This document shows, piece after piece, positions 181-37,036 of a stretch of 64,000 bases of DNA; within the stretch, counting starts at the first letter, position 1, and every line of letters begins with the position of its first letter. Made by a program: the position numbers and the translations under genes. The DNA comes from Lingula anatina (taxonomy: Eukaryota; Animalia; Brachiopoda): positions 4,402,001-4,466,000 of the forward strand of contig CM120642.1 in the NCBI GenBank assembly GCA_051362555.1. Direction: 5' to 3'. The notes beneath the pieces are model-generated. The model had not been told where the DNA came from and did not search any database. It saw only the letters and a program-made list of their open reading frames with translations.

Positions 181-194
181 CTCACCCTACCTAC

Positions 195-3100: not shown

Positions 3101-5095
3101 GCTCAAAGTCCAGTTTATAATGAGAAAAACTTTACTATCCACAAAAGAGAATAATAAATAATTAAGTTGATAATTCAAAGCACCTGACCTGATAATTGAA
3201 TACTAGGAAAAATTAAGAATATTGATGTAAAGGTGTGATCCTAAATTACATGACCCCAAATCAAGAACAGTTGCTCAAAGTCCAGTTATTTATGATGGAA
3301 ACAGTGTATGCTGGTTTGTGATAGTGTTATTGTCTATGAGAGGAAACAGCTGAAAGCAAAAGTTGCTCCAGCAACTTCCACAGAGAACTTGCCATCATAG
3401 CAGCAGCAGTCATTTTTTGCTAAAACTGAACTTCAGCTTACCAAGACAATGTTTCTCTTGATGCTAAACAGCTTTGTTTGCAACCATTTTCCAAGGAAAA
3501 ATTAAGGATACTGAAGTAAAGGTGTGACACTGACATGTCCCCAAATCAAGAACTGCTCAAAGTCCAGTTTATTATGAGAAAAACATTTCTATCCACAAAA
3601 GAGAATAATTAATAATTAAGTCGATAATTCAAAGCACCATTTCTGATAATTGATCACTAGGAAAAATTAAGGATATTGATTCAGAAGTAAAAGGTGTGAC
3701 ACTAAATTACATGTCCCCAAATCAAGAACTGCTCAAAGTCCAGTTTATTATGAGAAAAACATTTCTATCCACAAAAGAGAATAATTAATAATTAAGTCGA
3801 TAATTCAAAGCACCATTTCTGATAATTGATCACTAGGAAAAATTAAGGATATTGATTCAGAAGTAAAAGGTGTGACACTAAATTACATGTCCCCAAATCA
3901 AGAACTGCTCAAAGTCCATTTATTTATGAGGGAGACTTTTCTGTCCACAAAAGAGAATAATTAATAAATAAGTCATTAATTCAAAGCACCTGTTCTGATA
4001 ATTGATTACTAAGGAAAATAAAAGATGTTAAAGTAAAGGTGTGACACTAAATTATATGTCCCCAAATCAAACACTGCTCAATGTCTAGCTATTTATAATG
4101 GAAACAGTCTATGCCAAATACTTTTTAAATGAACAGCCCTTTGGCTAAGCTGGGTTAAAAAATTCACTAACCCAAACCAAAAAACATTAGCCTGAATATA
4201 AATAATTCATTTAAACAGTTTAAGCAGATTTTGTAAAGAGTTGTACTATCAAGCTAAGTTTACATTAACCGTTTAAAAAATAACGGGTATCTAATTTTCC
4301 TGTCAGAAGACGGTCAAAAATGAACGGATCAACAAACTTTAAGATAATTTGGAAGACAGTCAGAAAATATCTCTGAATCCGCTCCTGTATAATTCCTGTT
4401 AAATCCATCCCAAATCTCTTACCACAATCTCGGACCTCATCCTCTCCCCCTTCGCAGTCTACAGCCCCATCACAGTACCAGGAAGTGGGAATACAGCGGC
4501 CATCTTGACACTGAAACTCCTCAATGGTGCATGTGCGGTTCCTGCAGGAACTTTCGTCGCTGTTATCTGGGCAGTCCTGGGTGCCGTCACACACCCAGTG
4601 CGCCTCTATGCATGGCATACCAGACACACACTGAAACTGTCCTGGCTTGCATGTCACTGCACCTAAAATACATATGTAAACAATATCAAAATATTATAAT
4701 ACATGTACATACACCGCGCAAGAATTTCTGTCCTCTTTACTTAACTTACATTGACTTGCATTCAAGTACCAGAAACTAAATTTACAAAAACTTGCATGGT
4801 CTTTTTCGTTTTCTGTTTTTCTTTTTTTCCAACTAAAATTTAGTAAAAACTCTGTTTCTGCCTTTCTGCCTAGAAAACAACTGTCAAGCACCAGGGGTAG
4901 TCCCTGTGGCTTGTCTATAGCATATAGTTTCATTGACCTACCACAGTCTGTCTCATCAGAGAAGTCTTCACAGTCCACATCCTGGTCACACTTCCATATA
5001 CTGTGTATACACTGACCATTGGTGCACTGGAACTCATACTCTCTACACTGGTGTCCTAGTGGAGAATATAGACACAGATAGGGTATGTTGATATA

Positions 5096-5145
<50 letters not shown>

Positions 5146-5197
5146 CCTGAAGATATTGCTGAAACTGGTTGGGATGCAAAAAGTCAATATTGTTATG

Positions 5198-5239
<42 letters not shown>

Positions 5240-8200
5240 AGTAATTAAGGCTGCAGATGCATGTGATGGTTATACGTCCAGACACAGTGTCTGTCCATAA
5301 AAAAAAACATAAATGCAACCAGATTTGACAAATTCCTTATCATCATTACTTTGAATTTATTACAGTACTAGTACATGATGTACCGTACATGAATATGACC
5401 AAACATTCAAATAAATTGATTGAGTAATCCATGTATCTTTTACAAATAGATATATACTAATTGTAATTATTCAATGAACATATACAGCATTTACTAGTAA
5501 TTTAATACTGCAGCAATAAGTGAATTATATTACAATATCAATAAACATTAGTTAGAAGTGTGTAACAACCTGTACAATCTTTCTCATCTCTGTTATCTTC
5601 ACAGTGTTTTTGTCCATCACACATCAGTTCCTTAGAGATACACTTTCCATCACACTCTATGTGGTCCTCTGGGCAACCCTGCACTGTAAATGTTACAGTA
5701 ATAACTTGATAATTAATAACAAGTGTAAGGTCTGGACATTATAGTTAAATGGCTAACACAAATACCACACAATGTACGACTTTCTCATTATCTGTAATAA
5801 AATGAACTGAACACACATGCACCTTTTGATCAACAACCCAGTCTTTTGTCACATATGCACAACCTTGGTCCTGCAGCCATATTGCTCTCAAAAGTTCATC
5901 TCTGGGAATTAAAAAAATTCCAATCTGATTTTCAAAATGTGTTTGCAGTGTGGTAAGCTTTCACTACTTTACCTCTGTACGTGTATTGCCGATGTACCAT
6001 GACAATCGGACTTCCCTAAAATCTGCCTCCCCAGTCAAATTTTCATAATGAAAATGTTACTCCCCCCATAAAGTTTTGACTCCCAATCCCCCCACAAAAC
6101 TTAATAAATCTTTTTTTATTTGAGTATATGACTTTTTTCTTAGTATGCATAATGGAGGATACATTGGCACTTTTTGTTAGTTTGCAGGTGAAAATTTTCA
6201 TGAGAAAATAAGAAAATTAAAAATGTGTATTTTACCACCATGATATTTGGTGATCATTTCAAGATCTTTCCTTTTAGTATACTTCATGAAGAATACATTG
6301 GAAATACTTGATAGTTTGATGGTAAAATATTGGGTCACCGTGACTTTTGCCAGCAATGCAATGTCAACAGTTCTTAGTAAAATTGACACCTTCCATGCTA
6401 AAATCAATTGCTTCCTGAAGAAGTTCTCTTTAAGGATGTAATTATTATGCTCATCCAGGTAAGCAAATGGGTTTTTGCAATCTACTGCCTTAAGATTCCT
6501 GATCACAGATAATGATCATCACTTAAATCCAATTTTATCTCTTATAAGCAGGTATGCCATGGCTATAATTACAAAGATCAGCAAAGGAAATCAACCAGGT
6601 AAATAGCTCATCCTCCCTGACACTTTATTTCATCCTCACTGACACAAGTTGTCAAGCATTGTGAAGTATGATACCATCAGAAAAAGTCTGACTACTTAAG
6701 CACAGAAGTCAATACAATCCCCCATGTTTTTTTTTTAGTTGTTTTACCCCATTTCTGTTGGACTTGCCAGTTGCTAAGACGTGTGATGTCAGCTTGACTG
6801 TTAGATCATTTTTCTTGTCTAGTCCAAAAAAAGAATCTTCACAAGTGAAACTCAAGAAGCTTGCATGAGCTAATCAACAGAGTATGTTAGAATTTGATCT
6901 CTGGCAAGAACACAGCAGCGAGTGGAGGTCCCATTTCCAGTCTCTGACAGCTTCAATTTAGCACACGCCTTCTAGCACACCATTATCTAACCATAATATG
7001 CTATTCTAATCCCTGTTGTCACCCCACTGCCAAAGTAATAGTGGGCAAGACATATGCCATACCCTGCAGTCAAGATGCATATATTCAGCAAAAATCTCAA
7101 CAAGTTGAGATTGCTGAAAATGCATGTGCTAAGTTAAGCTGTTACAACTTCAATGGAAATGCATCCCAAATAGAAGAATACAAAGGGCACACATGTATGG
7201 AGACACGCTCACAGCCTGGCATTTGATACTGAAAGCAGAGTACAAAATGCTTGGCATGACTTTTCAGACAAGAAAATAATGCTCAAGTAAAATTCAGGAA
7301 TGGATATAATATTAATTTTCAACCAGTGCATACATGACAAAGGAAAATGTGGTCCACAATATATGATTATTTAAGATTAAACATAACTTAGAGAATAAGC
7401 TAGCTGATGAGTTTATGTGGAATCTACTAGATGTGCTTCAATTCAATTCCATTGGTAACTCCAGGTTTATCAACATAAGCTTAATCCTGAGAACTTACAT
7501 GGTTCACAAGTTTTGTCCTTCACTGTCATCCCTTCTGGACAAGAACAGACAAAATGGCCGCCAGGTTTAGCAAAACAAAGATGACTACAACCTCCATTAT
7601 CTGCAGAACATGCATTGGTACCTGAAGGAACATAGCAGTATTACAGAGATGCCTACATGCAGCAATAAATATTAATAACAACAGTAAATTCAACAGAAAA
7701 TTAATGTCAATTTTTATATTGTTGTTTTTGTATTGCCAGGTTTATCAAAGTACAGTGTATATACTGTAATTATATCAGAGATGAAATTGCAATATATGGG
7801 AATCTAGAAAAAATTCATTAACCATTTATTGGTAATAGTAGCTGTAAATTTGCAGCAGGCCTGATATTTTGCCAACAATCAGACAAAGGGAGGTGAAAAT
7901 ATAACCTCCTTGGCTGAGGTAATATTATATATCTACAGTATATGTTATCCAATATGCAGGCAATTACACAGGGTTAATACAATTGTCAACACAGTGATGC
8001 TGATATTACGGAGAAATCACACAGAATACATCAGTTTCTAATTTTCTCAAAAACCTTCTTGCAAAAAATGCAAGGCGAAATGGTTTTCTTATATCACCTT
8101 GTTGTCGTGATGCTGCCATGGCAACAATTCCCATCATGCCCTCATAGTTGAGGAGTTGTCCCTGATGTCCGCCATCCCATTTGTTTGCGTAATGAAGATG

Positions 8201-11200
8201 TGTAGTGTCCCAGTCCGTCCAGTATATTCTTTGCTGTAGTACCGTAATCGAGAATGGATGGGGAACATTCCTGTAATACATAATACCTATACAATGCTCA
8301 ATATGAAAATGTCCTCATATGATGGCCTTCACATATGCCATAACACAGCCTCTTTATGGTTAAAACTTATGGGAAACGTACACCTTTTTACACTTCATTT
8401 TATAGCATAAAGTTATGAACATTATAAACATCCCAAACATATCATCATTTTCAGATATACAATTTTCTGATATACAAACAAAAATCATATTTTTCACCTA
8501 ATTTTTTTTTCCTTCTTAAATTATTTCTGTATCATCCATTTCAAGTTGTATGGACAAATCAAATTATAAATTGTGATATACTGAAAGTAATCCATAAAAA
8601 TTCAGTGTGTTGTTACTGTATCTTGAAGTTTCTGAATCAGTACGTAATTGCTAGGGCACAAAAGTAAGATTTGAAGTTTGTGGGATTTCACGAGATTTTT
8701 TTCACTTCTGGGGACGTAAGATATTGCAAAACAGTCTAAACAACAGTGACTACAGCTGTCTACATGGTTTTCTGCAGTTTTAATGGCAAGAGTCATAATC
8801 AATCTGACCCAAATGGTCATCTACTTTACTTTAAAATTATGTAATCATCCTTTAATCCTTAAATATCAGGGGCACGTGGGTCGTGCCTGTAAACTATTTA
8901 AGTCTTTTGCATTAGGTGATTATCAGATAGAGTAAAAAAAATTTAATATTGCTGGGATTAAGAAATCCAAAACTTTCATGTTTTTACCTACAGTATACAA
9001 GTATCTTTAATTATAATTATGGTAAAAAATGTACTTAAAATATCTATCAAAATATCACATCTTTTTTTGACCAATTGTGTTTTAAAAAAAATTAATTTGG
9101 TCAAAATAAATAGATAAATCTTTTAGGCAACTTTTTTATAATCAACAAAATCAACAAAAACTTCCATCACAGCAATGGTCTTAAAATTAAAGCCGCAGAG
9201 ATAGTGTATCTCTATCCTGGATTATGTAACCATTATGATGGTAATGGAAGAATCCTAATAACACTTCTATACTACATGTAGCTGATACCTGTTACATCAA
9301 TCATTAATGGAAAAAAAAAAAACTGGTCTGAGTGGGAATCAGACCCAGGTTTGGCAGCCAAGGACCTTACCACTCGGCCAGCAATTCTGCTATCTGATGT
9401 AGTGTTATTGACAATATATGATTCTTGTCACACATGCCAAAGCTTTACGAATATTGCTGAAAGCTAGAAAATGCCTTCAAAACATAATTATAACAGTTAT
9501 AATAAAATTCAAACTATGATCACTATATTCCCACTGCCCTGAGGTAATGCTAATACCTGTCAGTTGTCAACAGATCATTGCATGCAGGTTGGGAGAAAAA
9601 CATGAAAAGGAGACTTCTACTGATCTCCTATTACTAAATAGATTGGAAAAATAAAGAAAACACTGTCTTCATGTAACTTGATATAACCATTCAGCTAGAT
9701 ATGTGTTATGACTGACATTTAGCTGGCATGAGAATCATTCATTTTTGAGACAGGAAAATCAATATATACATATAATTGATATATATTAATATGTCTGCAC
9801 GTCCATGATACTGGGTAACAACAATGGGTTATCATCTTTGAAAGTCTGCCTAAAAATTCCTATGTGTTGGATTACAATTGGGGTGCTTTCAGGTGAAAGG
9901 GGTGGAGTAATCTAATAATAACAAATAAATTCGTGTTTCCAAACATCGCTGTGTATTTTACACTTTTAAATTCTTAGCCAAAAATGACACTCAAAGGGGC
10001 CATTCAGAATGAGAAGAGGCGAGTGCTAGCTGGTCCACGGCCTAAATATGGCCGACCAACATGAAATGAAGACCGCTTAATCCTGTAATGGTCTCTCTGC
10101 TTCTTTCAAGCCTCCCCACGCGTTGTCCCTTGAACATATTGCAAAATATGATGCATATTCTAAGCGAAAAGCGTCCTCACAAGATCGGTGCCATGTTGAA
10201 ATTTCGATGCCCTTGCCCCATTGTTGTTACCGACTATGGTGCATAGATAGAAAGATAGATAGATAGATGCTATAATTTGTGACAACAATCTTTAGGCTTA
10301 AAGAATTTGACTTGCCTTACAACCACCCTTCTCTCCTGTCCATCTAAGCCTGTCGACTCTATGTGGTCAAAGCGGGCATCGCACCAGTAGAGCCTGCTGT
10401 CTTCATAGTCTATGGTCAAACTGTTTGGCCATCCAAGGCGGTCAACCAGGACCTTCCTGTTCTTGCCATCCAGATCACTACGTTCTATTACAGGACTTAC
10501 TCCCCAGTCTGAGAAATACAGGTGTCTGTAATAATTGACAAATAAATATTTTGATACATTAACATGTCAGTCACTTATGCATGCGAAGCGAATTTTTGGC
10601 CACAAAAACCTACCAAACGCCAGCATATAGTTTCAAATAGTATAGCTAAGAGAATTACCAAAAGATATTGTTTAATAATACCCAAAAAATGATATCTGAA
10701 AGGACTTTTCTGCTATTTTTCTATGCTGTATATACATAGCGCTAAAAAGTAGATCAATGACATGTAAGTAGGTTTTTCTGACCAAAAAATTTAAAGAAAA
10801 GGCAGTCAAAAGCTCTTATATGGCTAATCGAGTGATTTATTCAGTTTATCCCTTGGCATGTTGACTTTATTTGAGTCGTATAAGAAACTAGTAGAAGTGG
10901 TTTACATGTGTTACTGGATACCCACGCTCTACCAATGCTCGATTCATATGTACCTTTAACTAAAGGACAGATGCACAAGTAAATAGACTAACAGACTCAA
11001 ACTGACAAACAAGTATAAGGTCGCATTCACATCGACTTGAGCCATATGGCTCTACAAAGCCACGACCTAAATATGGCAGACGTACATGAAAGGAAAACCG
11101 CCTAATCTTTTAATAGTCTCTCCGCCTCTCACACGCCTCCCCGTGTGTCGTCCCAATGGAGCAGTGTTTTAATGACTGTACCCCTGCAGGGACGACATAT

Positions 11201-14200
11201 GGGGAGGCTATTAAAAGATAAGGCGGTATTCCTTTCATGTACGTCCGCCATATTTAGGTCGTGGCTTTGTAGAGCCATGGCTCAACTCGATGTGAATGTG
11301 GCCTAATATGTATACGGATGGGTACTCTTTCTTGAAACAACTTTAAAATAATCGATATACCTACTACATGCTCACATTATACTTTATGCATTACATTCTA
11401 CCAGTTGCAGAATACCAAGGCTAACTAAGCTGAAATGTACCCTTTCCTCATTTTGCACAAAACTAGCACCATTATTATCCATCATATCTCAGGATAATAA
11501 CCTTAAAATAATCAATAATTTACGCTGCACAGACTGAGACAAGAGAATTACCAAAAAGGGAAAACATTTACATCTGGTCTTAAATGTGCCCCCCCTCCCC
11601 CCTCCCCCCATAAGAAAATTCAGAAAAAAATTTTCTATATACATATTCTTGATGCAATGTAGGCACTTGGGATCAACTGGGTGGTCAAAATTAATATCAT
11701 GAACAGTGGCGGATCCAGAGATATTTTCTGACAATCTTCCAAATGATATTTGTTGCGCCATTCCCCATTTTTGACCATCTTCCGACAGTAAAAATTAGAT
11801 ACCCGTCAACGTAAACTTGAAAATCTGGAAGACCCAGAAGACGGCCTAAATCTGCCGCTGATTAACAATACCAGGCTGAGCAACAAAGTCCAGCTCACTG
11901 AAACACTGTTTGATAGACACTGTAATTGTAATTACGACATTTACCCATTTAGAGGGTGCACTGCTAACCCTCGGGGGCGATCCAAATATTTGTAGAGTAA
12001 GGTTTTTCTTGAGCTGCCATTGAGTCTTGATACTTCTATTAATGCCTAGAAATGAAAATCATTGTAGTAGTATTTAACTGTTTGAGGCCGCATATTTAGG
12101 AACTGATTCACTGATTATCTTAAAAAACAATGAAATAATTAGAAGAAGAACCAATTTCATAAAAAGCCCCAATACACAATCATGAGACAGTATTGTAAAA
12201 CTAGTTTTAAATACAATGTATTTAAAATAGTTCACAGATAAAATAGACATAAATTAAAGCTAGCAAATATAAAAGCAAGAACAGCAAAAAACATTGCAAA
12301 AATATTTTCAAAAAGTTAATAAACTTTATGAAAATAATCCAACCCAAACAAAATCAAAAACAGGCATAAACATAAATAATACAATGGACAAAACACAGTA
12401 AAAATAAACAATTATTTGCTTTGATTTTGTCTGACATTAGTAAGGGTGGCATATTCTCATTGGCAAGATTTTTAACTACTGCATTTGCATTGCGAGAGGA
12501 GATAGTGAAATGAATTTAATTCACAGTGTTGATTAAGAACATGACTATCATAACGTTTACATTCTTTGAAAATTGTTAAAAAGAGGACTAGCTATTACGG
12601 ATATGTCATATTTATTCAGTGTACATCAAAGGTTTTATTACAAGTGGTAAAATTGTGGTGAAATTTTATATGTATTTTGGGTCGGAGGCCTTAAATTACG
12701 GAATAAACATCATCATCATCAATAAATCCTATCAAACCAAGTTTCAAATGTAACGTGCCTCATTAACATTCAAATCCACTCCGCAAATTTGCAGTAGAAC
12801 AAAAATCTGATTTCAATTAGCATTTATGGGGTTAATGTCACAAAAATACATGAAAAAATTCCAAAAAGCAGAGTTGCGTGAAATTTAATCTGATCATGCT
12901 CATTTTCAAAAGGAACTTTTTTTTTTCAAAGACGCAATAATCTATATTCCAACATAGACTGCATGACACTTTAAATTTCATGATGTGTGTAAACCTTTTA
13001 AGAAGATGTATTATTTATAAATCACTTAGAAAGACCTTGGTTACAAAAATGCACGTTTGGCCTACTCATTCTGACATAATAACCAGTAATAAATCAATCT
13101 TTTCAATGGGGAAAGATTATTCTAAATGGCCATAAAGCAGTATTTTCATGAGTCCTTTGGAGAAGATTCAGTCTCTCTCTTGCTCTCTCTCCCTCTCTCT
13201 CTCTCTCCCTCTGTGCTACATCCAAACAAAACATATTGTTTTCAGAGGTTCTTGTGCAATCATTCTTTTGACATCAAATCTTTATTTCTATCAGATACGG
13301 TAAAATCTTGAAATTTCTGCACTGAAAAAATTATTAACTTTCTCATAGGTGATAATCTGAATTTCTCAAAAATGTGCTTCCACTAGAAATTGATTATTTT
13401 TTCTTTCTTACATCTTGCAAGCTTCCTGTGAAATGTTTATCATTTTTTCAATGTCTTCTCATCTGGGTCTGGCCAGAAATACATTTTTTGCCAGTGTAAT
13501 ATATTGTGACTGTTAAACCCCAATATCTCATTTTTCATTGCAATAACTTCAAGTTATTGAACTTTGAAATTACATTTTATTGGAGCCACCTGATATTATA
13601 ACATTCATACAAGATGTATACAAATTCATAATTTCAAATTTAAATAAAACAATAAATAATAATTTAATTTCAAAAACAGAGGCCCAATGAGATCATTCAG
13701 CCTCATTAAGAGGTTCATCGATGTCACTGAAAGCTTAATTAACAACTGACAACAATGTTGAATATGTGCATAAACTTGAAAATCTGCTGAGTTGTGCAGG
13801 ACACCATGGACTCAAGAAAAAATTAGCCATGCAGATTCAAGAGTTTAACATTGTTTTAATGTTTGCCCATTGCCATCTGATCAGGTTTTGTTTCTTTGAA
13901 TCATTAAGTATGAGTAATATGGAAGAAAGCTAGCAGGTTAACTTCTCACCATCCGCCTCCTCAGAAGCTAGCAACCAAATGGGTAAACCATCATCTGCAT
14001 ATTGCAGGCAGCCGCTCAAAGGGACACATTATTTTTCCAATCAAGATTATTGGCAAGGTTCTCATGACTCAAGTTTCATCTCCCCAATTAAACAAAGTCA
14101 GACAACATAACTATGCACAAGACAAAATGTTCTTGAAATTTATTCCAGTCTATTTTGAGTTTTGATACATTTTTCAATATGAAAAAATTTTGACAGTGGA

Positions 14201-17200
14201 ATATGGCCTTTTGACAAAGTTTTCAAGGCCAACAAAATGCTTAAGTCTTTACTGTAGTTGTTCCATACAATCATCTTTTTACTTTGTCATCTAATACTCT
14301 ATGATATAAGTGTCTAAAGATAAAATATTAGGAAACATGGGTTCCCAAACAATGGTACAGTATTAATTTCAGCCCACCTAAGACATAAACATTCATACAA
14401 ATGTCAGGAAAAGGATCTTATTTCTAAGCACTGAGTGTTATATAGTCACCATAAGTGGGTGTCTTGTGGTATATATTACATGTATGTACGTCTCATGCTT
14501 TATTTTCTCCATGCTCATGCATCATTGGATGTTACAAATGCAAAGGCAGATTGAGGCCATCTTCTGGGTCTTCCGGAAAACAGTAAGATTTTCAAGTTAG
14601 CACTGACGAGTATCTAATTTTTTCTGTTGGAAGATGGTCAAAAATAGAGAATGGATCAACAAAGATAATTTGGAAGACTGTCAGAAAATATCTCAGGACC
14701 TGCGACATTTAATGTCTTAACTAGAAAGCCAATTTAATACAACCAATTGTTCTGTACAGTCTGTGGTTGTACAAGGTTGACTGCTCTCTTATGAAAAAGA
14801 AGCTCTTCGATTGGACAATTGAATATAGTGATGACAGACATTTAATTTATGAGGAGTGCTGAGATATTGCAGGGTGTTTAGTAACAACACCAAAAAGTAC
14901 AGCCTTACTTGATAGGGTGGTAATACCCATACAATTTCTGTAAATCAAAGAAATAGCAAGCCTAAAGATACCACAAGAGAAAATGATGCTAGATAACAAT
15001 AACAGGACGCATCTAGAATCCTTTAAAGATTTTTCTCTCATCAATGAGTCAGGATTTCAAAGAGAACTTCTACAGAATGGCACACAAACTTTGGCTATGG
15101 AAAGTGTCTCTGTTTCACTTCGTGTTCTTATTGTCTCACTGAAGGGAATCTTTGTAATTTTGGGAGCCATGGGCAACATGTCCATTGTGGCAGCCATATT
15201 GCAAATCCCAAAGTTCCACAAGTCTGCTCACTACATCCTCATCTGCAGTCTCACCTTCAATAATGCCATGGTATCCTTCCTGGAGACATTTCCACAATTT
15301 CTGGCATTTACCATTCCAGACTGGGACATAGGACAGAGACTCTGTACCTTTTCTTTCTACGTCAAGCTGCCCCTGCTCACGACGTCTGCTTTGCTATTGG
15401 CTCTTATTGGATTTCAGCGTTGTATCCTAATTTCTAGCAAACCAGGTAATGCAATGGTAAATAAATTGAAATCGTCAAGATACATTGGGGGACTTATTGC
15501 TTTGGCATGGTTGTTGCCCATGCTTTTCATAATTCAAACAACTTTTGTGTGCAGGGGAAAGATTATACGTTATAGCCCAGAGAGCCTATTATGTATGTAT
15601 GATATCAGAAAAAAGCACTGTGATTCAATGGCTTTCTTTATGGTCTTATATGTAGCAGCATCAGTCATCATGTTGGTTTGTGATGGCATAATTATCTTTA
15701 AGATGAAAAAATTAAAGGAAAAGGTTGCTCCAGCACAAAATGCTTCAACTTCCACAGACAGCTTGCCATCACAGCAGCAGCAACCGTCATTTCTTGCTAA
15801 AACTGAACTTCAGCTTACAAAGGCCATGTTTCTTTTGATGATGAACAGTTTCATTTGCAACCTCACTCCAAGTCTTGTGCTGAACCTCATATCCATTGGC
15901 CCAGAAGCGCATATTGTTGCATCTTTACTTTTTCAGCTCTCACGAACAATGGATGCCATCATACTGTATGGGAAAAATAGGTCGCTCAGAAAAGCAATCC
16001 AAACATTGTATAAATCTTGTTTCTGCAAAGCATGACTGTCTTAAAAAGAAGCCCAATAGGCTTTATAAAGACCACTGACAAATCTGAAACTTTGCCTGAT
16101 GAAATCAGTCTTATTATCAAGATGTGACTTACGTGTATCCTGGCCATACATTTCAAGTTCTGGAAAGATGAGGACCAATTAAGAGATCAAAATGTGCTGA
16201 CTGAATTAATTTTAATAATCATTACTCAGGGGGGATTTAGGCCATTTTCTAGGTCAGATTTTCAAGTTTACATTGACGGGTATCTTATTTTTTCTGTGGG
16301 AAGACAGTTAAAAATAGAGGATGGATCAACAAAGATAATTTGGAAGACTGTCAGAAAATGTCTCTGGATCCGCCCTTGTAACTGGTAGTATTCTTCTTAA
16401 TCAGTAACGCAGGTTTATTAATTCAGATCACACTAAGCCCAAAACACCTTCTTATATTTATCCACTGTTAATTTGTAATGCACTGTAATTTTGTCATTTA
16501 TTATGTAATTTCCATTAGGTTACATGCACTCACAGTATTATTGCCATTACCACTGTTATCAAATTCAATGAAGAGAGCCAACAAATGTGCACAATGTACA
16601 ATTGCTTTTGTCAAGTGTAGGATTATTATCATGATTAATATTACTTAAGTACCTGACAAAAAATGCAAGCAGTAGTGAACAATAGCAAATGAAATAATTA
16701 TATAATTCATATCCAAGTGATTAGATAAATGCCATAAAGTGGTCTTCAATGTCTAGATTCAGTGTGTCGTTCAATATTCATGTCAAACTTAATGTATACA
16801 TACTGTACTTTTCTATTGTAATGTTTTATTTGTTTACTAGGCTTTTTATAATATATTGTAAAATTAGTTCTTTACCTAGCCTGTAATCTTGCTGGATTTA
16901 GAAGCTGGGGATTTTGGACACAAAACATAGTGTTCAAATTCAGTTATATTATATATTTATATATTATATGCTTAAGGGTCACTCCAGGGCTCTGTAACTC
17001 TGTAACTCGAGAGCATCGCGAATTACAATAGCAATATCACCTTTTATTTCGAGGCTAATCGGGGCATCCCGAGTTATGGAATAGAGGTGCTTGTGCTCGG
17101 TCGCAATTCGCACTACTTTCAAGTTACGGAGCCCAGCAAATTTGCAGTGAATTTGAGAGAGAGTTTGCCACAGGCCTGATATTTTGCTAAGGGTACCCAA

Positions 17201-20200
17201 GGTACACAAACGAGGCTTCAAATAAACTTTTGTTTCAAAGGGTCTTTTTTTTAATTCTGAATTGGGAAATATAAGAATCATTACAAGACAAAAATATGAC
17301 TGTGGGAGATTTTCAAATGAGTGCAGGGAGAGGTGGAGAGGTACGTCCTTTAATTAACATACTTATTCAATAATTGTAGTTAATACTCAAAAAGATTCCC
17401 ATACATAACTGCTTCATAATACTATAGCTTATTTGCCCATTAAACACCTGGATTTTTTTTTTATAGACACCATACAGTGAGTCCAGTACGTATGTCTGAG
17501 TAGATTACCTATGGAACTAAAGGATTGAGCCACTGGCTCTTCAAATTCCGTCTTACTCTGATATTACCTTGATGAAAACCAATTTTAAATTCATCTAATT
17601 CAAATTCATTTGTTTGTTTATTATATGTTTTTTTAACTATCTGGAACTTTTTGAGCACGCACAACTACAAGCCCCCCCCCCCCCCCCACACACACACACA
17701 CACAAAGTCTAGTTAAAATTAACCACATTTCATCCACTACCTGACCATGAAGTGGAACTGCCTTTAATTTGCTACACACCCACAACTCCCAAAAAACAGT
17801 ACCTTATACACTTCAATGATGAAAAATATGTCAACATCTTGAACTTCACACCTCTCCTATCTACTGGTTAAATTATTTGCACTCTTTGCAATTGGTAAAG
17901 CTTAACCAAAACACAACTTTGCAGATTTTAAGTCTAGGGTCAAAGAAAATGGCGGCTATTCCTCAAATACAACGGGTTTCCTAATACCTATCCAGATGCC
18001 CGGGCCTTAAAATCAATTTCCACCCCTCACAAAAGATCTTATAATCCAATATCAATTAAAATTGGCACATATAGAAGTCCTCACCTTGTATCACTTCACT
18101 CAATTCAATGAGATTATCCAAAATTTAATAATAACAAAATTTTTTATTTTTTCACTGGGCATTTCCATGCTTATTTTTTAAAACTTAGGGAATTTTTAAC
18201 ACAGAAGCAACCAACAGATTTCCTATGAAAATTTATGGATGTGATGCTTGCTTTATTACCTATGTACAAAAAAATTGATACAAAAGTCCCCAAAATTGTG
18301 GCCCATTATCGACGGACAAAATTTAGCAGGACAAACTATATACTTGCAAAATCCCTTCACAAGTAATAAATAGTTCATCACCTAGGTAAAATGTAGAACA
18401 GACTAAGATTCCCTTTGGCTCAGATAGTATATAAGCTGGGCACTGTTTCACATTAAACTTGGACTCCCCAACAATGCCAACATATGTCTCAGCAGTCTTC
18501 ACCAAGATTGGTTTACTCTCAGGGATCCTCAATTTTGGCAGTCATCTCTCAGAGACCCTCGACAACAGCAGTATTGTAACCTTTCAACAACCCACAACAG
18601 CAGCAGTCATCTATCGGCAGCCTTTGGCATCAGCAGTCTTACCTCTCAAGGACCTTCTACACTAGGTAACCTTTCAGCAGACCTCGACAGCAGCAGTAAT
18701 CTCAGCAGATCTCAACAGCAGCAGTCTTACCTCTCAGTGACCCTCGACAGCAACAGTAATCTCAGCAGCCAGTGACAGCAGCAGTCTATCTCTCAGATAC
18801 ACCCTTCAGTCAATGTTTTTTTTTAAACTGATTGATTGTTATTTCTTGTTTAATTCAATTACACAAATTATTATATTTATTTGTTTATGTCTCCCTTGAT
18901 TTTTTTTTTTTTTTTGATACATGCACAACAGCAGTGTTTTATAGTCAAGTTGTGGTTTTTTTTGTGTTATAAAATTATTGAATGCATGTACTTCTACCTT
19001 TTTCTTCATGCTCATGTATCTTGGATGTTAACAATGTCTAAACTTAGAAACCAATTCAACACAAGCATACTTCTGCACTGCACGTAGTTGATCAAGATTG
19101 ACGCCTCTTGTATGAAAAAGAAAGTCTTCAATTGGTCAACTGAAAATACAATGTAGGTGACGACAGATATTCATTAGTGGAGCAGACGCCCTGCGGGGTA
19201 TTTAGTAGCAGCAACCAAAGGTGCAGCTTCACTTGATAGGGTGTGAACATCACTGCAGTTTCTGTAAATCAGAGAAATAGCAAGCCGGAAGATAGCACAA
19301 GAGAAAATGATGCTAGACAATTATAACAGGACGCATCTAGAATCCTTTGAAGACTTTTCTTTCATCAATGAGTCAGGAAATCAGACAGAAATTCTACAGA
19401 ATGGCACACAAACTTTGGCTATGGAAAGTGTCTCGGTTCCACTCCGTGTTGTAATCCTCATGCTGAAGGGAATCTTTGTAATTTTGGGAGCTGTGGGCAA
19501 TACATCGATTGTGGCAGCCATACTGCATATCCCAAAGTTTCACAAGTCTGCTCACTACATCCTCATCTGCAGTCTCACCATCAACAACTCCTTGGTATCC
19601 TTCCTGGAGACATTTCCACAATTTCTGGCATTTACCATTCCAGATTGGGACATAGGACAGAGACTCTGTACCTTTTCTTTCTACGTCAAGCTTCCCCTGC
19701 TCACGACGTCTGCTTTGCTATTGGCTCTTATTGGATTTCAGCGTTGTATTGTCATTTCCAGCAAACCAGGTAATGCAATGGCAAATAAATTGAAATCGTC
19801 AAGATACATAGGGGGACTAATTGCTTTGGCATGGTTGTTGCCTGTGCTTTTCATAATTCAAACAGCTTTTGTGTGCAGGCGCAAGCTTATACGTTACAAC
19901 CCAGAGAGCTTATTATGTATGTATGATAACAGAAAAAATCACTGTAATTCAATGGCCATCTTTATGGTCTTATATGTAGCAGCATCAGTCATCATGTTGG
20001 TTTGTGATGGCATAATTATCTATAAGATGAAAAAATTGAAGGAAATAGTTGCTCCAGTGCAGAATCCTACAAGTACTTCAACGGAGAACTTGCAGCCGCA
20101 GCAGCAGCAACCGTCATTTCTTGCTAAAACTGAACTTCAGCTTACCAAGACCATGTTTCTCTTGATGCTGAACAGTTTCATTTGCAACCTCACTCCAAGT

Positions 20201-23200
20201 CTTGTGCTGAACCTCATATCCATTGGCCCAGAAGCACATATTGTTACCTCGTTACTTTTTCAGCTCTCACGAACAATGGATGCCATCATATTGTATGGAA
20301 AAAACACGGCACTCAGAAAAGCAATTCAAACAATGTATAAATCTTGCTTCTGCAAAGCATGACTGTCTTAGAAAGAAAAAAGAAGCCCAACAGGTAAAAT
20401 AAGGGCCATTTATAAATCTCAAACTTTGCCTGATGAAATCAATCTTATTATCAAGATGTGACCAATGTGTATTATGATCCAACATTTAAAGTGCTGGAAA
20501 GGTGAGGTTCAATTATGAGATCAAATATGATTACATTTATTTTATCATTATGATAACTTACAGATAGTGTTCTTGTGTATTAGTTACTCTTTATCAACTT
20601 GAATTCAGATTACAAAACATCCAATAATACAAGTTACAATATAAATCTATTGTTAATGTGCAAATGTGCTGTTATTTTATCACTTATTATTTAATTTCTA
20701 TTAGATTATGATCAAAGTCTGGGTTGTCCTCTTATAGGTTCATGTGGCACAGTATTACCATTATCATTTTTATCAAATTCCACCACATTGCTCAATTTCT
20801 TTTAACTCTCAGATTATTAATATCATAAATTTCAAGGGCATGGTGATAAATTACAAGCACTATTTATTGATAACAATTGAAGTAGATGTAATTATCAACA
20901 TGAATATTGTGGCAAATACAAAAATTATATATGCGTCTCTACTAAAGAAATTAACATATATTGACTGGTGGAAGTATACAGAGCAGGTTCAGGGACCATA
21001 AGTCGGGCTGTTATGCAGCAATTTAAAAGCAACTTAAAACAAAATCCAATGGAAAAGCAGTGAAGTTGGTCTTCAATGTCTAGATTCAATATGTCATACA
21101 ATAGTCACCTCAAACTTAACATATGGCTATTGTACTACTTCTGTTGTAATGTTCAAGTGTTTACTAGCCTTTCTATAATTTATTGTAAAATAAGTTCTTG
21201 ACAAAGCCTGTAATCTTACTTTCAAATTGCAAATTTTTTTACCCTTATATCTGAAAAACTGGGAGAGATATGCTCATAGTTACTGTTGAACTTGAATGGG
21301 AAGTCTTAATTAGCAATCCTACTGTAACCTTGAATTTCACCTTTGACCTACTTTTCACCATGAACTGCACTTTGTAAATTTTCTGACACTTGTATCTCTA
21401 AAACTGACAGAGGTACATCCATTGTTACTGTTGAACTTGAATAGGAAGTCATATATGGGCAGGGTGTTACTGTAAGGTTTATATTGCTTTTTTTATTGTG
21501 CTTGAGGAGCTGGGTGATCCAACGCATCCGATGCACTTACATTTGTGTAAGTGATAACTATATTAGGTTTAGGGATATTCATATTAGTTTGGACATTTTA
21601 TTTCATTCAACCCAGTGTTTCTGTAGGATGAACACACAGTATATTCTTTTTGATCAGTCATTTTGGGTTTTGTTATTTAGAATTTATAGTTTAAGGAATG
21701 GCAGGAATGATGATTTTTTATACTGATTATTGATTACTAGTGATTATTGAAATTTATCAGTTTTTTAAGTAAATTTAAGCATGGTAAATCATGGGTAGTG
21801 AGTGAATTATTGTAATTTTTTCCTACTTTTTTAGTTTTAATGTGTCTTGTGAATTCTTGCCTGAAATAAAACTAAGATCCAGTGAGCCTCTTATGCCTTT
21901 CCTTGACTTGGCGTACCCTCACGTACTATGTTACTATGACCTTGAATTTGACCATTAACCTAGATACCCATATTTGCTACTGAACCTGAATAGGAAATCA
22001 TATATTGGTAAACTTTCTGTGATCCTGAATTTGACCTTTGACCTACTTTTCACCATGAACTGCACTTCACAAATTTTCAAGCTCTTATATTTATTATTGA
22101 ACTTAGATTTACACTCTTACTGTGACCTTGGATTCTACCTTTTACATTTTCCCACAATTTTGTTATAAATTGTAATTGTCTACAAAACCACTGGAGGTGG
22201 TGTCCCTTTTTTTTATTTGCCATACATGGGTTTACTCCAGCTGGTGATACTATACCCGGAGAGTAGCACCTCTACATGTAGTTTAGAATGGATTGGATGC
22301 GCCATCAAGCAATCGCCATATCGCTTAAAGTTGTAGGACAAGTTAAAATCATTCAATACACACATAAAATGCACAGTTTTAAATGTTCTCAATTTCAACT
22401 GCCAACAACAAAATTACATCATGTTATGTAATAAATATATTCAAAACAATAGGATATAAGAGCTCCAGGGAATCACTGACCATAATTAAACTACCTACAT
22501 GTAAATTTTTCCAATGTGGTTCAGTGACAACAAGAATGAAATGTGAATAGACTGATTAACAGTATCTTTTCTGATTTTAAATGTAAAATCAGTAGAAAAA
22601 AAGGGTCTTAAGAACTTAACAAATTTACCAGAGCTTAATTCAGTTCTGGTATTGGCCCTTACTGAGGTATGATTGAAGTACATGTAGCTGACTAAAAAGA
22701 AACTAAGCAGACATGGATAATGTCCTGTGGTTGAGGGTTCCGCCCCCTCTTGTGTAACATAAGCTATTTTCTGTTCATTTGTCAGGAAAAGGATCTTATT
22801 TCTGAGCAATGATGCTCATTGCAGACACGTGGCAGTGTTTTATAGTCATGATGTGGGTGTCCTGTGGTACATATTGCATGTATATGTTCTTCTTATACTT
22901 AATTTTCTCAATGCTCATGTATCATTGGATGTTACATATGTCTATACCTGGAAGCCAATTTAATCAAACCAATTGTTTTGTACAGTCTGTGGTTGTACAA
23001 GGTTGACTGTTCTCTTTTGCGAAAAAGAAGTTCTCTGATTGGACAATTGAATATAGTGATGACAGACATTGATGAGTTGTGCTGAGATCTTGCAGGGTAT
23101 TTAGATACACCACCAGAAGACACAGCCTCACTTGGCAGGCTGGTAATACCCATGCAACTTCTGTTAAAGATATTACAAGCCAGAAGATAGCACAAGAAAA

Positions 23201-26200
23201 AAATGATGCCAGATGATTTTAACGAGACATACCTAGAATTCTTTGAAGATTTTTCTCTCATCAATGAGTCAGGATTTCAGACAGAATTTCTACAGAATGG
23301 CACACAAACTTTGTCTATGGAAAGTGTCTCGGTTCCACTCCGTGTTGTAATCCTCACACTGAAGGGAATCTTTGTAATTTTGGGAGCTGTGGGCAACACT
23401 TCCGTTGTGGCGGCCATATTACATATCCCAAAGTTCCACAAGTCTGCTCATTACATCCTCATCTGCAGTCTCACCTTCAACAATGCCATGGTATCTTTCC
23501 TGGAGACATTTCCACAATTTCTGGCATTTACCATCCCAGACTGGGACATAGGACAGAGACTCTGTACCTTCTCCTTCTACGTCAAGCTGCCCCTGCTCAC
23601 AACATCTGCTTTGCTATTGGCTCTTATTGGATTTCAGCGTTGTATCGTCATTTCTAGCAAACCAGGTGATGCAATGGCAAATAAATTGAAATCATCAAAA
23701 TACATTGGGGGACTAATTTCTCTGGCATGGTTGTTACCCGTGCTTTTCATAATTCAAACAGCTTTTGTGTGCAGTGGAAAGGTTATACTTTATAGCCCAG
23801 AAAGCCTATTATGTATGTACGATATCAGAAAAAAGCACTGTGATTCAATGGCCATCTTTATGGTCTTATATGTAGCAGCATCAGTCATCATGTTGGTTTG
23901 TGATGGTGCCATCATCTATAAGATGAAAAAATTGAAGGAAATAGTTGCTCCAGCAACTTCCACAGAGAACTTGCCGCCACAGCAGCAGCAACCATCATTC
24001 CTTGCTAAAACTGAACTTCAGCTTACCAAGACCATGTTTCTCTTGATGCTGAACAGTTTCATTTGCAACCTCACTCCAAGTCTTGTGTCGAACCTCATAT
24101 CCATTGGCCCAGAAGCCTATATTGTTGCATCGTTACTTTTTCAGCTCTCATATACAATGGATGCCATCATATTGTATGGCAAAAACACGGCACTCAGAAA
24201 AGCAATTCATGCAATGTTTAAACCATGTTTCTGCAAAGCATGACTTCCTTAAAAATAAGCCTGACAGGTTATATAAAGACCATTGGCAAATCTGAAACTT
24301 TGCCTGATATAAACTTGAAGCTTAACCAAGATGTGACTAATGTGTATCATGATCCAACATTAGAAGTGCTGGAAAGGTGACAATCAATTAAGAGATCAAA
24401 TTATGATTACTTAATTTACTTTTATAATCATAGCTTATAGTGTTCAGTTACTCTTTATTTATTCAGATCACAATGCATCCAATACATTTTACAAAATTTA
24501 TCTATTGTTAACGTGCACATGAAGGTAATTATCACAATATGGGTTTTTCTCTTGTAGTTTCATGTGTCACATTTTACCATTTACCATTTTTATCAAATTT
24601 AACCAAGAGCCAGTAAGTGTGAACATTGTACAATTACTCTGGTTTACTGTCAGATCATTAATATAATGGTAACTATCAAGAGCCTGGGGATAAAATGCAA
24701 GCAGTAATCATTGATGGCAAATGAAGTAGATGTAATTACCAACATCAATACTGGGGCAAAATGCCATATATATAGCGTTCTTCTAAAGAACATGCTGATT
24801 ATACTGAGCAGGGTCAGTGACCATAAGTCAGGCAGTTTGCTGCAATTTAAAACAACATCCAATGGAAAAGCAGGGAGGTTGGTCTTCAATGTCTAGATCC
24901 AATGTGTCATGCGATCAATAGTCACGTCAAACTTTATGTATAGACTTTGTACTACTTCTCTATTGTAATGTTTTATTTGTTTATTAATCTTTTTAGAATA
25001 GTTTTGTTTACTAGTCTTTTTTAAAGATAGATGGTCATTTAGGGCTAAATGACCATCTATCTAGCTAGAGACATATCTGTGAATATCTGTAAAAAATCTA
25101 TCACTCTCCCTGGTAGAGGGTACATCTCTGCATTTGTTTATTATACCACAACTTTCAGGCCTGTAGCCAGGAATTGCAAAAAGGGGGTTGTTTTTCTGAA
25201 AATGTGGACCTTTTTTCATGAAACCTTAGTTTACATAGATCAAATTTAACCAGAGTGGACCTTTTCCCGGCAAAAAAAAAGGGGTGGGGTTCTTTTGAAA
25301 ATCTCTCCCCGAACCCACTCTGGCTATGGGCCTAACTTTTACCTTGGTAGATTCAGTCCAGTACACATTGTGTGCCATCCAGTCCACGGCCACGCCATCC
25401 ACAGTGACCAAACCCTCCTTTACAATGGGATGCCTAGGCAATGGAATACAATAGTCTAATTATTTACATTTTCTAAATTTCCAAAAACAACAACAACAAC
25501 AACATAAATTGGAAAACGACACTCATCATTTCTTCAAGAAATGATTATCAGATGGAGACATACAAAGCATGTGGCCAATTTCTCTTTTGCTTCCTTCCTT
25601 AGTGTTTTGAGGTATTAATATGTCAGCTCTTTAAAGAAAAAAGAGTTTGACTTACACAGGTCTACCCAGTCTATCATAACTTTTTAGCAGACAAAATTCT
25701 CTTTTGGTTTATTATGTGTCTGTCATGATTAAAACCTAATCAGTCACCCTTGAAAATAACATACACTTAAATGGAAGGAAAATAGAAACTATTATTTTTT
25801 GTCTGTAGTTACAATGTGTAGCATATGGAAGCACAAATGCTGTGACAGTCATGGTATAAACTTTTCAATTTTTGCACATAGTATGAAAGCTACTAAATAC
25901 CTCTGCATGTGTGTGTATTTAAATACACTGCTCATATATATATACATATTACAACATTCAAACTGTGTTGAAATGAAATAGGTTAAACTAAAACTAAGAT
26001 ATTTGTTTTGTTTGTTGATTAGTGTGCAGCACTTATCAGCAATTATGTAACAGCAAATCCAAATATCTCATTTAAACCTTATATATAGACAACAGCAAGG
26101 AATCATGAACGCTCCAGAATGTTATGGCCAGCAATTAATATGCTAGTGAATTTACAAGATCACACTGAACCTTAATGACACACAGTTAACACTAAAATAT

Positions 26201-29200
26201 TTGTTTCCATATGTTGATAAGTGCCCAATTTCTGTTTGAAAGTGCAGCAATCATCCACAATTCTGTGACAGCAACTCCAAATATCTCAATTAATCCTTGT
26301 TTATAATGGTAAGGTGTCAAGGACGCCCCATAAGAGCTTTGATCTATAAGCTCTTGTTATGGCCTGCAATATGCCAGTGATTTTACAAGATCACAGTGTA
26401 CTTTACTGACACACAATGAGAGGAAAACAGCAAAAAATCATTTTAGGGAACATTTTGGTGATAAAGTAAAACTTGCTTGAAATTACATGACTTTTTTCAA
26501 AATAAAGGTCTAATACTCATTAATATTGTACTTGCATGTATGTCTTTAAAACAAAATGGTAACAACACATTCTCACTTTGTCTTATACTTTTTTACTCTC
26601 ATTTTTTTTTCTTGTGTTAAAAGACATTATTTAGCATGGTTGTTTTCTGCAATGTAAGCAACAGGTTGCCAAGAGAGAGAAAATGTTTCACTGTACATCC
26701 CTTAAATTATCCGTCTGATCACTGCCCACAATTTGGAGAACAGGTATCAAGAAATAATGGGGAAAGCAGGTGAAATAACTGTGTACAAATTGATCAATCA
26801 TTGGATGTGGACTCCTGGAGAGAATTTGCAGAAAGATGTCTAGAAGCCTAGGAGAGCCATTGGAAGCACATGAAGATAGGTGCATATGAGGTTCATGACC
26901 CTAAGAAAGACATACTTGAGGAAGCGGCATAAATATCACTTGAAACAGGAGAGTGTTTTTGTACAGCAATAGAGGAAGAACTAAGGTGACAAGATTCATA
27001 CATCACCTGTGGTTTGGCTGTAGATTCCAAGAAATTCAAAAAACCTTCAAAGTACATGGAAAACTAGCTTCAAATTAATGTACAAATTAATTTCATCATG
27101 CACACTGGTCACAAGACTTCCTTCTATCAAAAAAACCCACACAGCTCTTAAAATGAATGAAAGACCCTGAGTTGAAGGGAGAATAATCCAGTGAATTCCA
27201 GCAATTATTGGAAAATAAAGAAAGTAAAGAATAACCCAGGGATACATAATCAACACTCTTGTTATCCACCCAACAATGAGTATGCTGTACTTTGAAACAG
27301 ATTCCCTTAACAGTATTTAAGGAAGAACTAGAAAAGAACTGAGAGAGTGCAGACCTCCACCAAGGCAGCTCAATTCTCATCATTATTAATTATTTTGAAT
27401 AAGTGAATAAGTTATTTATTTATTCAATTCTTAATTAAAACTCATTCTTCTAAAAAATTTATATACCTAAAGAGACTTACACATATCCTGTGGTCAGATC
27501 GCCTTGATAAATGGCATCTTGAGTCACATCGCTGTAAAACACCTTTTCATTTGACCAATCATAGTCTAAGGCAATGGCATTTTTCAGGTGCGGAAACATC
27601 ATTGGACTGAACTGGTTATGGCCTACAAAATCTGGGTAAACTTTCAAAATGGATGTCCTTGCTGCTATCAACATAGACGATGTGGTTGGCAAATCTAAAA
27701 TTTAAAAGAAATATTACAATTTTTATTTATTTTTGTAGCTTTAAGTAAGGATAAAGTCTCAAGAGACTTTATCCAATCAAATCAAAGAACTAATTGAAAA
27801 TATTTGCCCTTAGAGGTTTGACATACTATATGAAACTTGTCTATTTGCCAATTTTCATTTTTTGAACTAAAAATTGCAGGTTGCACACTGTGTTTTTATG
27901 AAGTATCACCTCAGAATTATCCAACTATTTAACACAGGAAACTATAGAAACTCAAATGGACACAGTTTTTTTTTCATAATAAATTATTTTTAAGTAAAGG
28001 TTGGGGTTCACTGCATATGAACAATTAATTGACCGAAGATAATAACATAATTTATACAACTGACATACACAATAAAGTCTGACTATGTTCTTATTTATAA
28101 AATATTATTATTGAATTGTTGATTAGAAATAAGTAAAATAAAGTCCTTCAATACCTTGTATAATCATTTTTATCTACTGCAGATTTGATACATCAAAAGA
28201 ATTCAATGTCATCAGTGATTTTTTTTCAATCTAATGTCACATATGAGGATAAGTGTTAAGTTATTTGGAAAAGATTTTTTAAAACTTGTACTTCAGAGCA
28301 ATTCCTTTTTCACTTACATGATACGCACCTTTGCATGAAAATTTGTCAGCTGCCAGGTAGCGCCCCTTTGGACATATGCAAGACACTCTATGGTCAGCCA
28401 TCTCACCACTCCAGACACACAGACCATCACACAGATGACCGGAGCAAGGATTAATACCTGACATCAATAAAAAAAACCAGTGGTATTTTTCCTCAGGTAA
28501 TTCATACATAACGTATCTTTGATGTTATCTAAACCATCAAAAAGATGACCAATCATTATATCTTGATACTTAACTATTTAGAAAAATCATAAATTTTTTG
28601 AAGCACTCACTTCTCAAACATTGATTTTAAAATATTTTAAAGGTCACTATGAGACCAAATTAACAAACAGACAGATGGACAGACAAACAGACAGACAGAC
28701 AAATTCTTTTTTTCTGATTAAATCACACTTTCTGAGCAAAGATAGACTTTTTTTTTTCAATACAGAATATTATATATACTATAACAGCAATATCCAACTA
28801 TATTAACAAAATATTAATATCAATCAGCCAAAAAATTCACCACACAGTCATGTTGGAATAAGAAATATGTATAAAAATTAAACAAATTCTGTAACACGTT
28901 TGCCACTCCTGGCTGTGATGTTTTGACCAGAAAGAAAGCTGTCAGTTTGAGTGTCACGTTGCAAACAAAACCAGAGTTCACGTGTGGCCACATAATTACC
29001 AGCAGGCTGGAGGGCAGTGTTCTTCACTACGAGTTGTTGTATCATATACCGAGGTTTGAGCACCGTCTTCCTGTCTTTGCCAGTCCTTTTGTTGACTGAG
29101 TGAATGCTGGAGAGGTAGTGATCAGCCCAGTAGATTACATCTTCAAATACAACCATGCTGGGAGGATCATACATCTTGATTTCAAAGGCAACCTAGAAAA

Positions 29201-36170: not shown

Positions 36171-36266
<96 letters not shown>

Positions 36267-36978: not shown

Positions 36979-37036
<58 letters not shown>

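What the first reader, a model, noticed from the sequence alone, without database searches (positions are those of the whole stretch)
12046..25342. Tandem cluster of three intact orphan GPCR genes nested antisense in a vitellogenin-receptor intron
Seen: the 13.3-kb intron that splits the second YWTD propeller holds three intronless 346-351 aa 7TM ORFs on the opposite strand. Each lies in a ~2.3-2.6-kb duplicated unit whose flanks are also homologous (approx. 14400-16890, 18930-21220, 22780-24990). All three ORFs are intact while the flanks carry indels and MITE insertions, which points to purifying selection. Known: VgR/yolkless genes are oocyte-expressed, and intronless clustered class-A GPCRs are often chemosensory. 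Inference: this is either a young chemoreceptor expansion using a host silent in soma, or a gonad-linked receptor module regulated together with (or exclusively of) yolk uptake.
Basis: partly seen in the sequence, partly recalled or inferred. Interest (0 to 1): 0.8.

Follow-up and report, generated by a model that had tools for sequence, protein, structure and literature searches.

The report
Receptor trio inside lipoprotein-receptor intron
Three intact, duplicated orphan receptor genes sit backwards inside one long, spliced intron of a lipoprotein-receptor gene (likely a yolk receptor) in an invertebrate; the arrangement is real and under selection, but it is most likely an ordinary small receptor expansion that happens to lie in an intron.

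Summary
Confirmed. Three single-exon class-A GPCR ORFs (350, 351, 346 aa; 86-89% identical) lie on the + strand inside intron 12046-25342 of a - strand LDLR-family gene. RNA reads join its flanking exons (3 reads each in 2 of 4 runs). dN/dS is 0.24-0.40 (all upper limits below 0.6) and the flanks decay, so the copies were kept by selection. A decayed fourth fragment lies in another host intron. The closest relative found is a Lingula orphan (29%). The receptors lack the usual D2.50, DRY and NPxxY motifs (QRC, DAIILY). Placement near Tre1/moody/melatonin-like receptors is suggested but unresolved. Copy B is faintly transcribed (about 6 read pairs) in the same three runs that express the host; five other runs show neither, and tissues are unknown. 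The host has arthropod-VgR-like architecture with 3 rather than 4-5 first repeats; VgR orthology was not testable. Nested antisense intronless genes and tandem GPCR expansions are both well known, and this scan noted a similar cluster in another genome. Best reading: an ordinary lineage-specific orphan-receptor expansion using an intron as a landing site. A gonad-linked module is not excluded.

The parts
14983..16035 (+). GPCR copy A, 350 aa, single coding exon
   Evidence: about 0.4 sense reads in the repeat-free bins of the unit, so expression is not shown
19307..20362 (+). GPCR copy B, 351 aa, single coding exon
   Evidence: about 12 sense reads (6 pairs) over its unit in X1, X2, X3
23203..24243 (+). 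GPCR copy C, 346 aa, single coding exon
   Evidence: about 7 sense reads in the bin 24228-24824 just downstream, in X1 and X3
14402..16893 (+). Duplicated unit A with flanks, including two MITE insertions
18931..21220 (+). Duplicated unit B with flanks
22780..25000 (+). Duplicated unit C with flanks
12046..25342 (-). Host intron, 13,297 bp, GT-AG; the next longest host intron in the model is 2,047 bp
25343..25433 (-). Host exon upstream of the intron (second YWTD propeller)
11945..12045 (-). Host exon downstream of the intron (Ldl_recept_b)
192..38138 (-). Host LDLR-family gene, 24 modelled coding exons: predicted signal peptide, 3 LA, 2 EGF, YWTD, EGF, YWTD, EGF, 8 LA; runs off the window. 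One donor (exon starting at 1235) is unresolved
   Evidence: (open frame of 1183 aa); four junctions have RNA support, three as joints and one as loose ends
3308..3488 (+). Decayed GPCR fragment (TM5-TM6, in-frame stop), closest to copy C, set in a 176-bp tandem array in another host intron
14545..14710 (.). MITE-like insertion upstream of copy A
16228..16379 (.). MITE-like insertion downstream of copy A

Best explanation
Three intact class-A receptor genes, kept by purifying selection, lie antisense in a spliced intron of an LDLR-family gene, and they are likely a small lineage-specific orphan-receptor expansion for which the intron is a landing site rather than a functional partner. Inferred steps: one single-exon receptor gene was inserted antisense into the intron. 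A 2.2-2.5-kb unit holding the gene and its flanks was then copied in tandem twice within a short time (all pairwise dS about 0.2). Each copy is likely transcribed at a low level from its own promoter, while the host spliceosome removes the whole block. The predicted proteins keep the 7TM fold, the TM3-ECL2 cysteine pair and R3.50, and vary most in the loops and termini, including ECL2. That pattern would fit tuning to related small-molecule cues, most likely chemosensory.
For: Intact ORFs and 7TM fold. dN/dS 0.24-0.40, upper 95% limits 0.35-0.59. A neutrally evolving copy stays intact in 0-1 of 2000 simulations with flank-like indels, and in 4-6% with substitutions only. Splice across the block shown by RNA. 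No close relatives (0 of 5365 word candidates; best profile hit 29% identical). A decayed fourth fragment points to birth-and-death turnover. ECL2 has 8 of 25 variable residues against 26 of 215 in the helices (p=0.013). Nested genes are typically short, intronless young duplicates, 74-78% of them antisense in mammals (PMC8467205, passages). Tandem lineage-specific class-A GPCR expansions average hundreds of genes in molluscs and annelids (PMC11886862, abstract, passages and section 5).
Against: All sense reads come from the 3 runs that also express the host, and none from the 5 that do not. A link to the host's tissue would predict exactly this. No positive selection was seen (extracellular pN/pS 0.53), so 'chemosensory' rests on analogy. 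The family is small and has a probable Lingula relative, which also fits an endogenous-ligand receptor. The genome was not available, so family size elsewhere is unknown.
Confidence: 0.66

Rival explanations
1. Gonad-linked module: the receptors, possibly derived from Tre1-like germ-cell receptors, are expressed in oocytes or follicle cells because the host intron is open there, and they sense a lipid or hormonal cue tied to yolk uptake.
For: Copy B and the host are seen in the same 3 of 8 runs. The host has VgR-like architecture (PMC7243368 passages). Many named hits are labelled Tre1-, moody- or melatonin-receptor-like, and Tre1 guides germ cells in Drosophila (PMC5584160 passages). An enhancer inside a crab VtgR intron is on record (PMC12009396 passages).
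Against: Tissues are unknown and may be whole animals. The host is at only about 2-7 FPKM and copy B at about 0.2. The three runs belong to one study, so library type may explain co-detection. The copies lack the NRY and NPIIY motifs that Tre1 needs, and the trees do not place them inside the Tre1/moody clade. Nested pairs tend to diverge in expression in Drosophila (PMC5174743 abstract).
Confidence: 0.16
2. An endogenous-ligand or ligand-independent orphan receptor family of lophotrochozoans, with non-canonical activation switches, that was locally amplified; unrelated to chemosensation and to the host.
For: Loss of the TM2 aspartate and of NPxxY is shared with the Lingula protein and partly with two unnamed proteins (SATHS/LQRY/DVIIIL in Lingula; SLTINN/FQRC/DAIILY in copy B). 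The clade of the three copies with Lingula and P0023 has support 98/83. A 48-residue TM2-TM3 block is invariant.
Against: Long branches, and the sequences were chosen by likeness to the query. Motif decay also occurs in fast-evolving chemoreceptors (recalled). No ligand data.
Confidence: 0.14
3. Recently dead or silent copies: selection acted in the past, and one or more copies (A above all) are no longer used.
For: Copy A has no clear sense reads and carries two MITEs in its flanks, one about 270 bp upstream of the ATG. No AATAAA or ATTAAA was found within 1.1 kb downstream of any copy.
Against: All three frames are intact and all three pairwise ratios are low. B and the C flank have sense reads.
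Confidence: 0.04

Closest known systems
Lingula anatina XP_013395934.1 (automatic name '5-hydroxytryptamine receptor 1B-like')
   Same: Best hit (E 1e-28, 117 bits); 29% identical; groups with the three copies (98/83); shares QR at the end of TM3, YxPxxxxC in ECL2 and a D-xII TM7 without NPxxY
   Different: Distant; its genomic setting could not be seen; the name is an automatic label, not a tested function
Lineage-specific class-A GPCR expansions of Lophotrochozoa (PMC11886862)
   Same: Tandem paralogues without close orthologues, with full-length and pseudogene members
   Different: Only three intact copies seen; no positive selection detected; phylum of the window not established; a word search of the paper's main text did not cover nesting, and its supplements were not read
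Nested antisense single-exon GPCRs such as P2RY5/LPAR6 in RB1 intron 17 (PMC2361346, passages)
   Same: A single-coding-exon class-A GPCR in reverse orientation in the host's largest intron
   Different: A single vertebrate gene there, a young tandem trio here. Multi-gene cases (GPR18/GPR183 in UBAC2; the P2RY12-14/GPR87 cluster in MED12L) are recalled; the passages read show only co-location
Tre1/moody/melatonin-receptor-like invertebrate GPCRs
   Same: Frequent among the named hits; similar ECL2 spacing (Y-x-P-x4-C or close) in several
   Different: They keep NRY and NPxxY, the copies do not; only 18-23% identical; grouping neither supported nor rejected (p-AU 0.155)
Arthropod vitellogenin receptor (yolkless type; PMC7243368, passages)
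   Same: Two LA clusters separated by EGF/YWTD regions; 8 LA in the second cluster
   Different: 3 LA in the first cluster against 4-5; C-terminal half outside the window; LRP1 and LRP2 begin with the same domain order (recalled); no VgR sequence came back for comparison

Membership tests
Class-A (rhodopsin-like) GPCR | Pfam 7tm_1 above the curated cut-off | tested here: met
   58-62 bits against 30.5, 3 of 3 copies
Class-A (rhodopsin-like) GPCR | Seven-helix fold with helix 8 | tested here: met
   Model of copy B, pLDDT 74; top matches are all class-A receptors
Class-A (rhodopsin-like) GPCR | TM1 GN, TM3 and ECL2 cysteines, R3.50, TM6 proline | tested here: met
   G64, C121, R146, C204, P297 invariant and N65 nearly so in 13 sequences; generic numbering is recalled
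Class-A (rhodopsin-like) GPCR | Canonical D2.50, D/ERY, CWxP and NPxxY switches | tested here: not met
   SLT(I/F)NN, FQRC, FICNLTP, DAIILY in all three; divergent member, signalling not shown
Tre1/moody/melatonin-like receptors | NRY and NPIIY-type motifs | tested here: not met
Tre1/moody/melatonin-like receptors | Falls in the clade | tested here: inconclusive
   Weak sister position (77) in the 71-row quick tree; apart in the 38-row careful tree; p-AU 0.155
Aminergic (5-HT) receptors | DRY motif and amine-binding TM3 aspartate | tested here: not met
   In the alignment with 5-HT1A the aspartate of LDVLC faces lysine (VKLPL) and DRY faces QRC; the residue's role is recalled
Lineage-specific chemoreceptor expansion | Tandem paralogues without close orthologues | tested here: met
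   orthologues in near relatives could not be searched
Lineage-specific chemoreceptor expansion | Positive selection in ligand-binding regions | tested here: inconclusive
   ECL2 more variable than the helices (p=0.013) but extracellular pN/pS 0.53; only three sequences
Lineage-specific chemoreceptor expansion | Expression in sensory tissue | not testable with these tools
   Run tissues are not given
Nested gene | Lies in an intron that is spliced out of the host mRNA | tested here: met
   Junction reads, 3 in X1 and 3 in X3
Vitellogenin receptor (arthropod type) | LA cluster, EGF/YWTD region, 8-LA cluster | tested here: met
Vitellogenin receptor (arthropod type) | 4-5 LA repeats in the first cluster | tested here: not met
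   3 found between the predicted signal peptide and the first EGF (norm)
Vitellogenin receptor (arthropod type) | Orthology by phylogeny; single third propeller, TM and NPxY tail | not testable with these tools
   Gene runs off the window, no genome; searches returned mostly LRP4/5/6 and no VgR; the three best full hits are 31-33% identical
Vitellogenin receptor (arthropod type) | Ovary-specific expression | tested here: inconclusive
   Seen in 3 of 8 runs, all of one study; tissues unknown

The most novel reading that the evidence does not exclude
An oocyte- or follicle-expressed receptor module: a lophotrochozoan orphan GPCR subfamily that has lost the sodium-pocket and NPxxY switches was captured in the yolk-receptor intron, is switched on with the host in the ovary, and links a lipid or spawning cue to yolk uptake.
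Probability: 0.12. Interest if true: 0.62.

Novelty: new member of a known kind. Interest (0 to 1): 0.27.

Why it matters
As the best reading has it, this is one more tandem orphan-GPCR expansion plus one more nested-gene case, useful mainly for annotation. It does define a small divergent receptor subfamily, shared with Lingula, whose switch motifs are altered. If the receptors proved to be oocyte-expressed together with the host, they would be candidate sensors for control of vitellogenesis in a marine invertebrate and a test case of co-expressed antisense nesting.

Tried and rejected
No whole genome is held, so family size and the host's 3' half could not be checked. The word-based homologue search for copy B found 0 of 5365 candidates. 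The ESM Atlas gave no answer in four tries. The run search listed no RNA holder; the nine runs were additions by species label, and 8 of 9 were laid (X6 was not). The first fold, from 3 sequences, failed (pLDDT 35). The C-terminal half alone gave no significant match among solved structures (best E 0.33). Fold searches do not single out a subfamily (top Z values tied). '5-HT receptor' was rejected despite the top sequence hits, because the key residues are absent; a tree test did not reject grouping with four unnamed aminergic-looking proteins either (p-AU 0.077; the label is mine, from their motifs). The fragment at 3308-3488 was tried as a neutral control and failed: dN/dS against C is 0.18 on 59 codons, so it probably came from an older functional paralogue. 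Host orthology: two exon searches and two structure-sequence searches did not separate VgR from LRP1/2/4; the second-propeller exon scores higher on LRP2 propeller 1 (56 bits) than on propeller 2 (44 bits). One paper search for 'vitellogenin receptor + nested + intron + GPCR' returned one paper, irrelevant on reading the passages; searches for molluscan or annelid VgR descriptions found none usable. These searches cover the held library only, and no supplements were read.
Full report
Observation. They are 86-89% identical in protein and 90-91% in DNA. Self-comparison shows three homologous units reaching about 0.4-0.6 kb upstream and 0.75-0.85 kb downstream of the ORFs. Unit A alone carries two insertions of a MITE family that recurs elsewhere in the window and is abundant in RNA reads.

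Host gene. A model of 24 coding exons on the - strand, from ATG 38138 to the window's edge, gives an open frame of 1183 aa: predicted signal peptide, 3 LA repeats, two EGF, a YWTD propeller, EGF, a second propeller, EGF and 8 LA repeats. Pfam confirms LA, EGF or LDLR-B domains on 7 of 10 exons tested. One donor site near 1050-1119 is unresolved. Stranded reads join 27481 to 25433, 25343 to 12045 (3 reads in X1, 3 in X3) and 11945 to 10525, so the 13,297-bp intron is real; the next longest is 2,047 bp. This domain order matches arthropod VgRs, which have 4-5 plus 6-8 LA repeats (PMC7243368, passages). LRP1 and LRP2 start the same way (recalled), the 3' half is outside the window, and no VgR sequence was retrieved. 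The three best fetched proteins are 31-33% identical. The host is therefore VgR-like, not shown to be VgR.

Selection. Pairwise dS is 0.18-0.23 and dN 0.055-0.074; dN/dS is 0.24-0.40 over three transition weightings, with bootstrap upper limits of 0.35-0.59. Flanks differ by 0.17-0.37 with 9-20 gap events per pair; the coding regions have one in-frame gap per pair, in ICL3. A neutral copy at this divergence stayed intact in 0-1 of 2000 simulations when indels were allowed and in 4-6% without them. Changes are spread about equally over the three lineages (46, 38, 48), so the two duplications were close in time. ECL2, the termini, TM1 and ICL3 vary most and TM3 least; no region exceeds pN/pS of 1.

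Fourth copy. A 181-bp fragment (TM5-TM6) with an in-frame stop lies at 3308-3488 inside a 176-bp tandem array in another host intron. It shares the short ICL3 of copy C. Its low dN/dS against C (0.18, 59 codons) suggests it came from an older functional paralogue, so the family has had more members.

What the receptors are. The word-based search found nothing. The profile search over 1.84 billion representatives gave 78 hits at E up to 0.001; the best by far is a Lingula anatina protein (E 1e-28). I looked up names for 30 of the 78; many of the named ones are labelled Tre1-, moody- or melatonin-receptor-like, from echinoderms, hemichordates, arthropods and a priapulid. In a 71-row quick tree (10 hits dropped for length or repeats) the copies group with Lingula, an Owenia protein and two unnamed proteins (SH-aLRT 97), weakly next to Tre1/moody (77). 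In a 38-row careful tree (35 hits chosen by me) the group with Lingula and one unnamed protein has 98/83 and its wider place is open. Tests reject neither a Tre1/moody/melatonin-like nor an aminergic grouping (p 0.155 and 0.077). Branches are long and the set was chosen by likeness to the query. The organism is probably a lophotrochozoan; this is an inference from these hits only. The model from 13 sequences is a normal class-A bundle. The TM3-ECL2 cysteines, R3.50 and the TM6 proline are kept, but D2.50, DRY, CWxP and NPxxY read SLT(I/F)NN, QRC, FICNLTP and DAIILY (numbering recalled). Lingula shows similar losses in TM2, TM3 and TM7.

Expression. Eight of nine listed runs were laid, each read to 6-30% (likeness 95 and 92). 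Host exons are covered only in X1, X2 and X3, all of study P1, at roughly 7, 4 and 2 FPKM. In repeat-free bins of those runs, reads on the receptor strand come to about 12 in unit B, 7.5 in unit C (3' flank), 0.4 in unit A and 4 in the rest of the introns, against about 39 host-strand intronic reads. Ten of 12 estimated pairs fall in the units, which hold 53% of the bases (p=0.03); for B alone p=0.052. These counts are estimated from mean depths, and DNA carry-over cannot be excluded. X4, X5, X7, X8 and X9 show no reads on the receptor ORFs beyond repeat edges, and next to none on host exons. So B is likely transcribed at about 0.2 FPKM, C possibly, A not shown. Tissues are not given.

Mechanism. 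Shown: intact constrained ORFs, tandem units, splicing across the block, faint sense RNA for B. Inferred: insertion of one single-exon gene, two tandem duplications of gene plus flanks, own promoters, and tuning to small-molecule cues. The nesting is most simply incidental: nested genes are typically short, intronless young duplicates and about three quarters are antisense in mammals (PMC8467205, passages), and they accumulate in long introns (PMC5174743, abstract). A single-exon GPCR reversed in a host's largest intron is known for P2RY5 in RB1 (PMC2361346, passages). Tandem lineage-specific class-A expansions are widespread in lophotrochozoans (PMC11886862, abstract, passages, section 5). 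This scan recorded a similar cluster in a chloride-channel intron of another genome and called it ordinary (an unchecked note). The main result against my reading is the co-detection of B with the host; it keeps the gonad-linked reading alive at about 0.12-0.16.

Verdict. Real, functional-looking, and a new member of known kinds. Interest 0.27.

Noticed in passing
window 10315-10316 (- strand): The host intron after the exon 10525-10316 starts with GC (GCAAGT), a GC-AG intron. The frame closes only with this donor, and 18 reads in X1 have loose ends there that match the next exon.
   Followed up: yes
window 2904-4085: A 176-bp tandem array in a host intron, interrupted by the 181-bp decayed GPCR fragment; it looks like a templated patch copied from a paralogue.
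   Followed up: partly
window 4283-4389, 11708-11865, 14545-14710, 16228-16379, 49437-49606: A MITE family of about 165 bp with CAGGGGCGGAT-like inverted ends and apparent 5-bp target duplications in three copies; hAT-like by recall; very common in RNA reads.
   Followed up: partly
window 57920-59131 (- strand): Two ORFs that appear to be exons of one PAP2-family phosphatase gene, upstream of the host on the same strand; the second matches PAP2 at 65 bits.
   Followed up: partly
window 61713-63662 (- strand): A 649-aa LINE-type reverse transcriptase ORF (RVT_1, 147 bits).
   Followed up: no
window 43177-43773 (- strand): A 198-aa proline/glutamate repeat ORF (PELPETLEH units) behind a possible splice acceptor, with no Pfam match; a minisatellite or an exon of an unknown gene.
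   Followed up: no
window 21227-22078: An interspersed repeat between units B and C, found in many transcripts of all 8 runs laid.
   Followed up: no
window 35390-35600 (- strand): Several decayed copies of the end of an LA exon and its donor site follow the exon in the intron.
   Followed up: no
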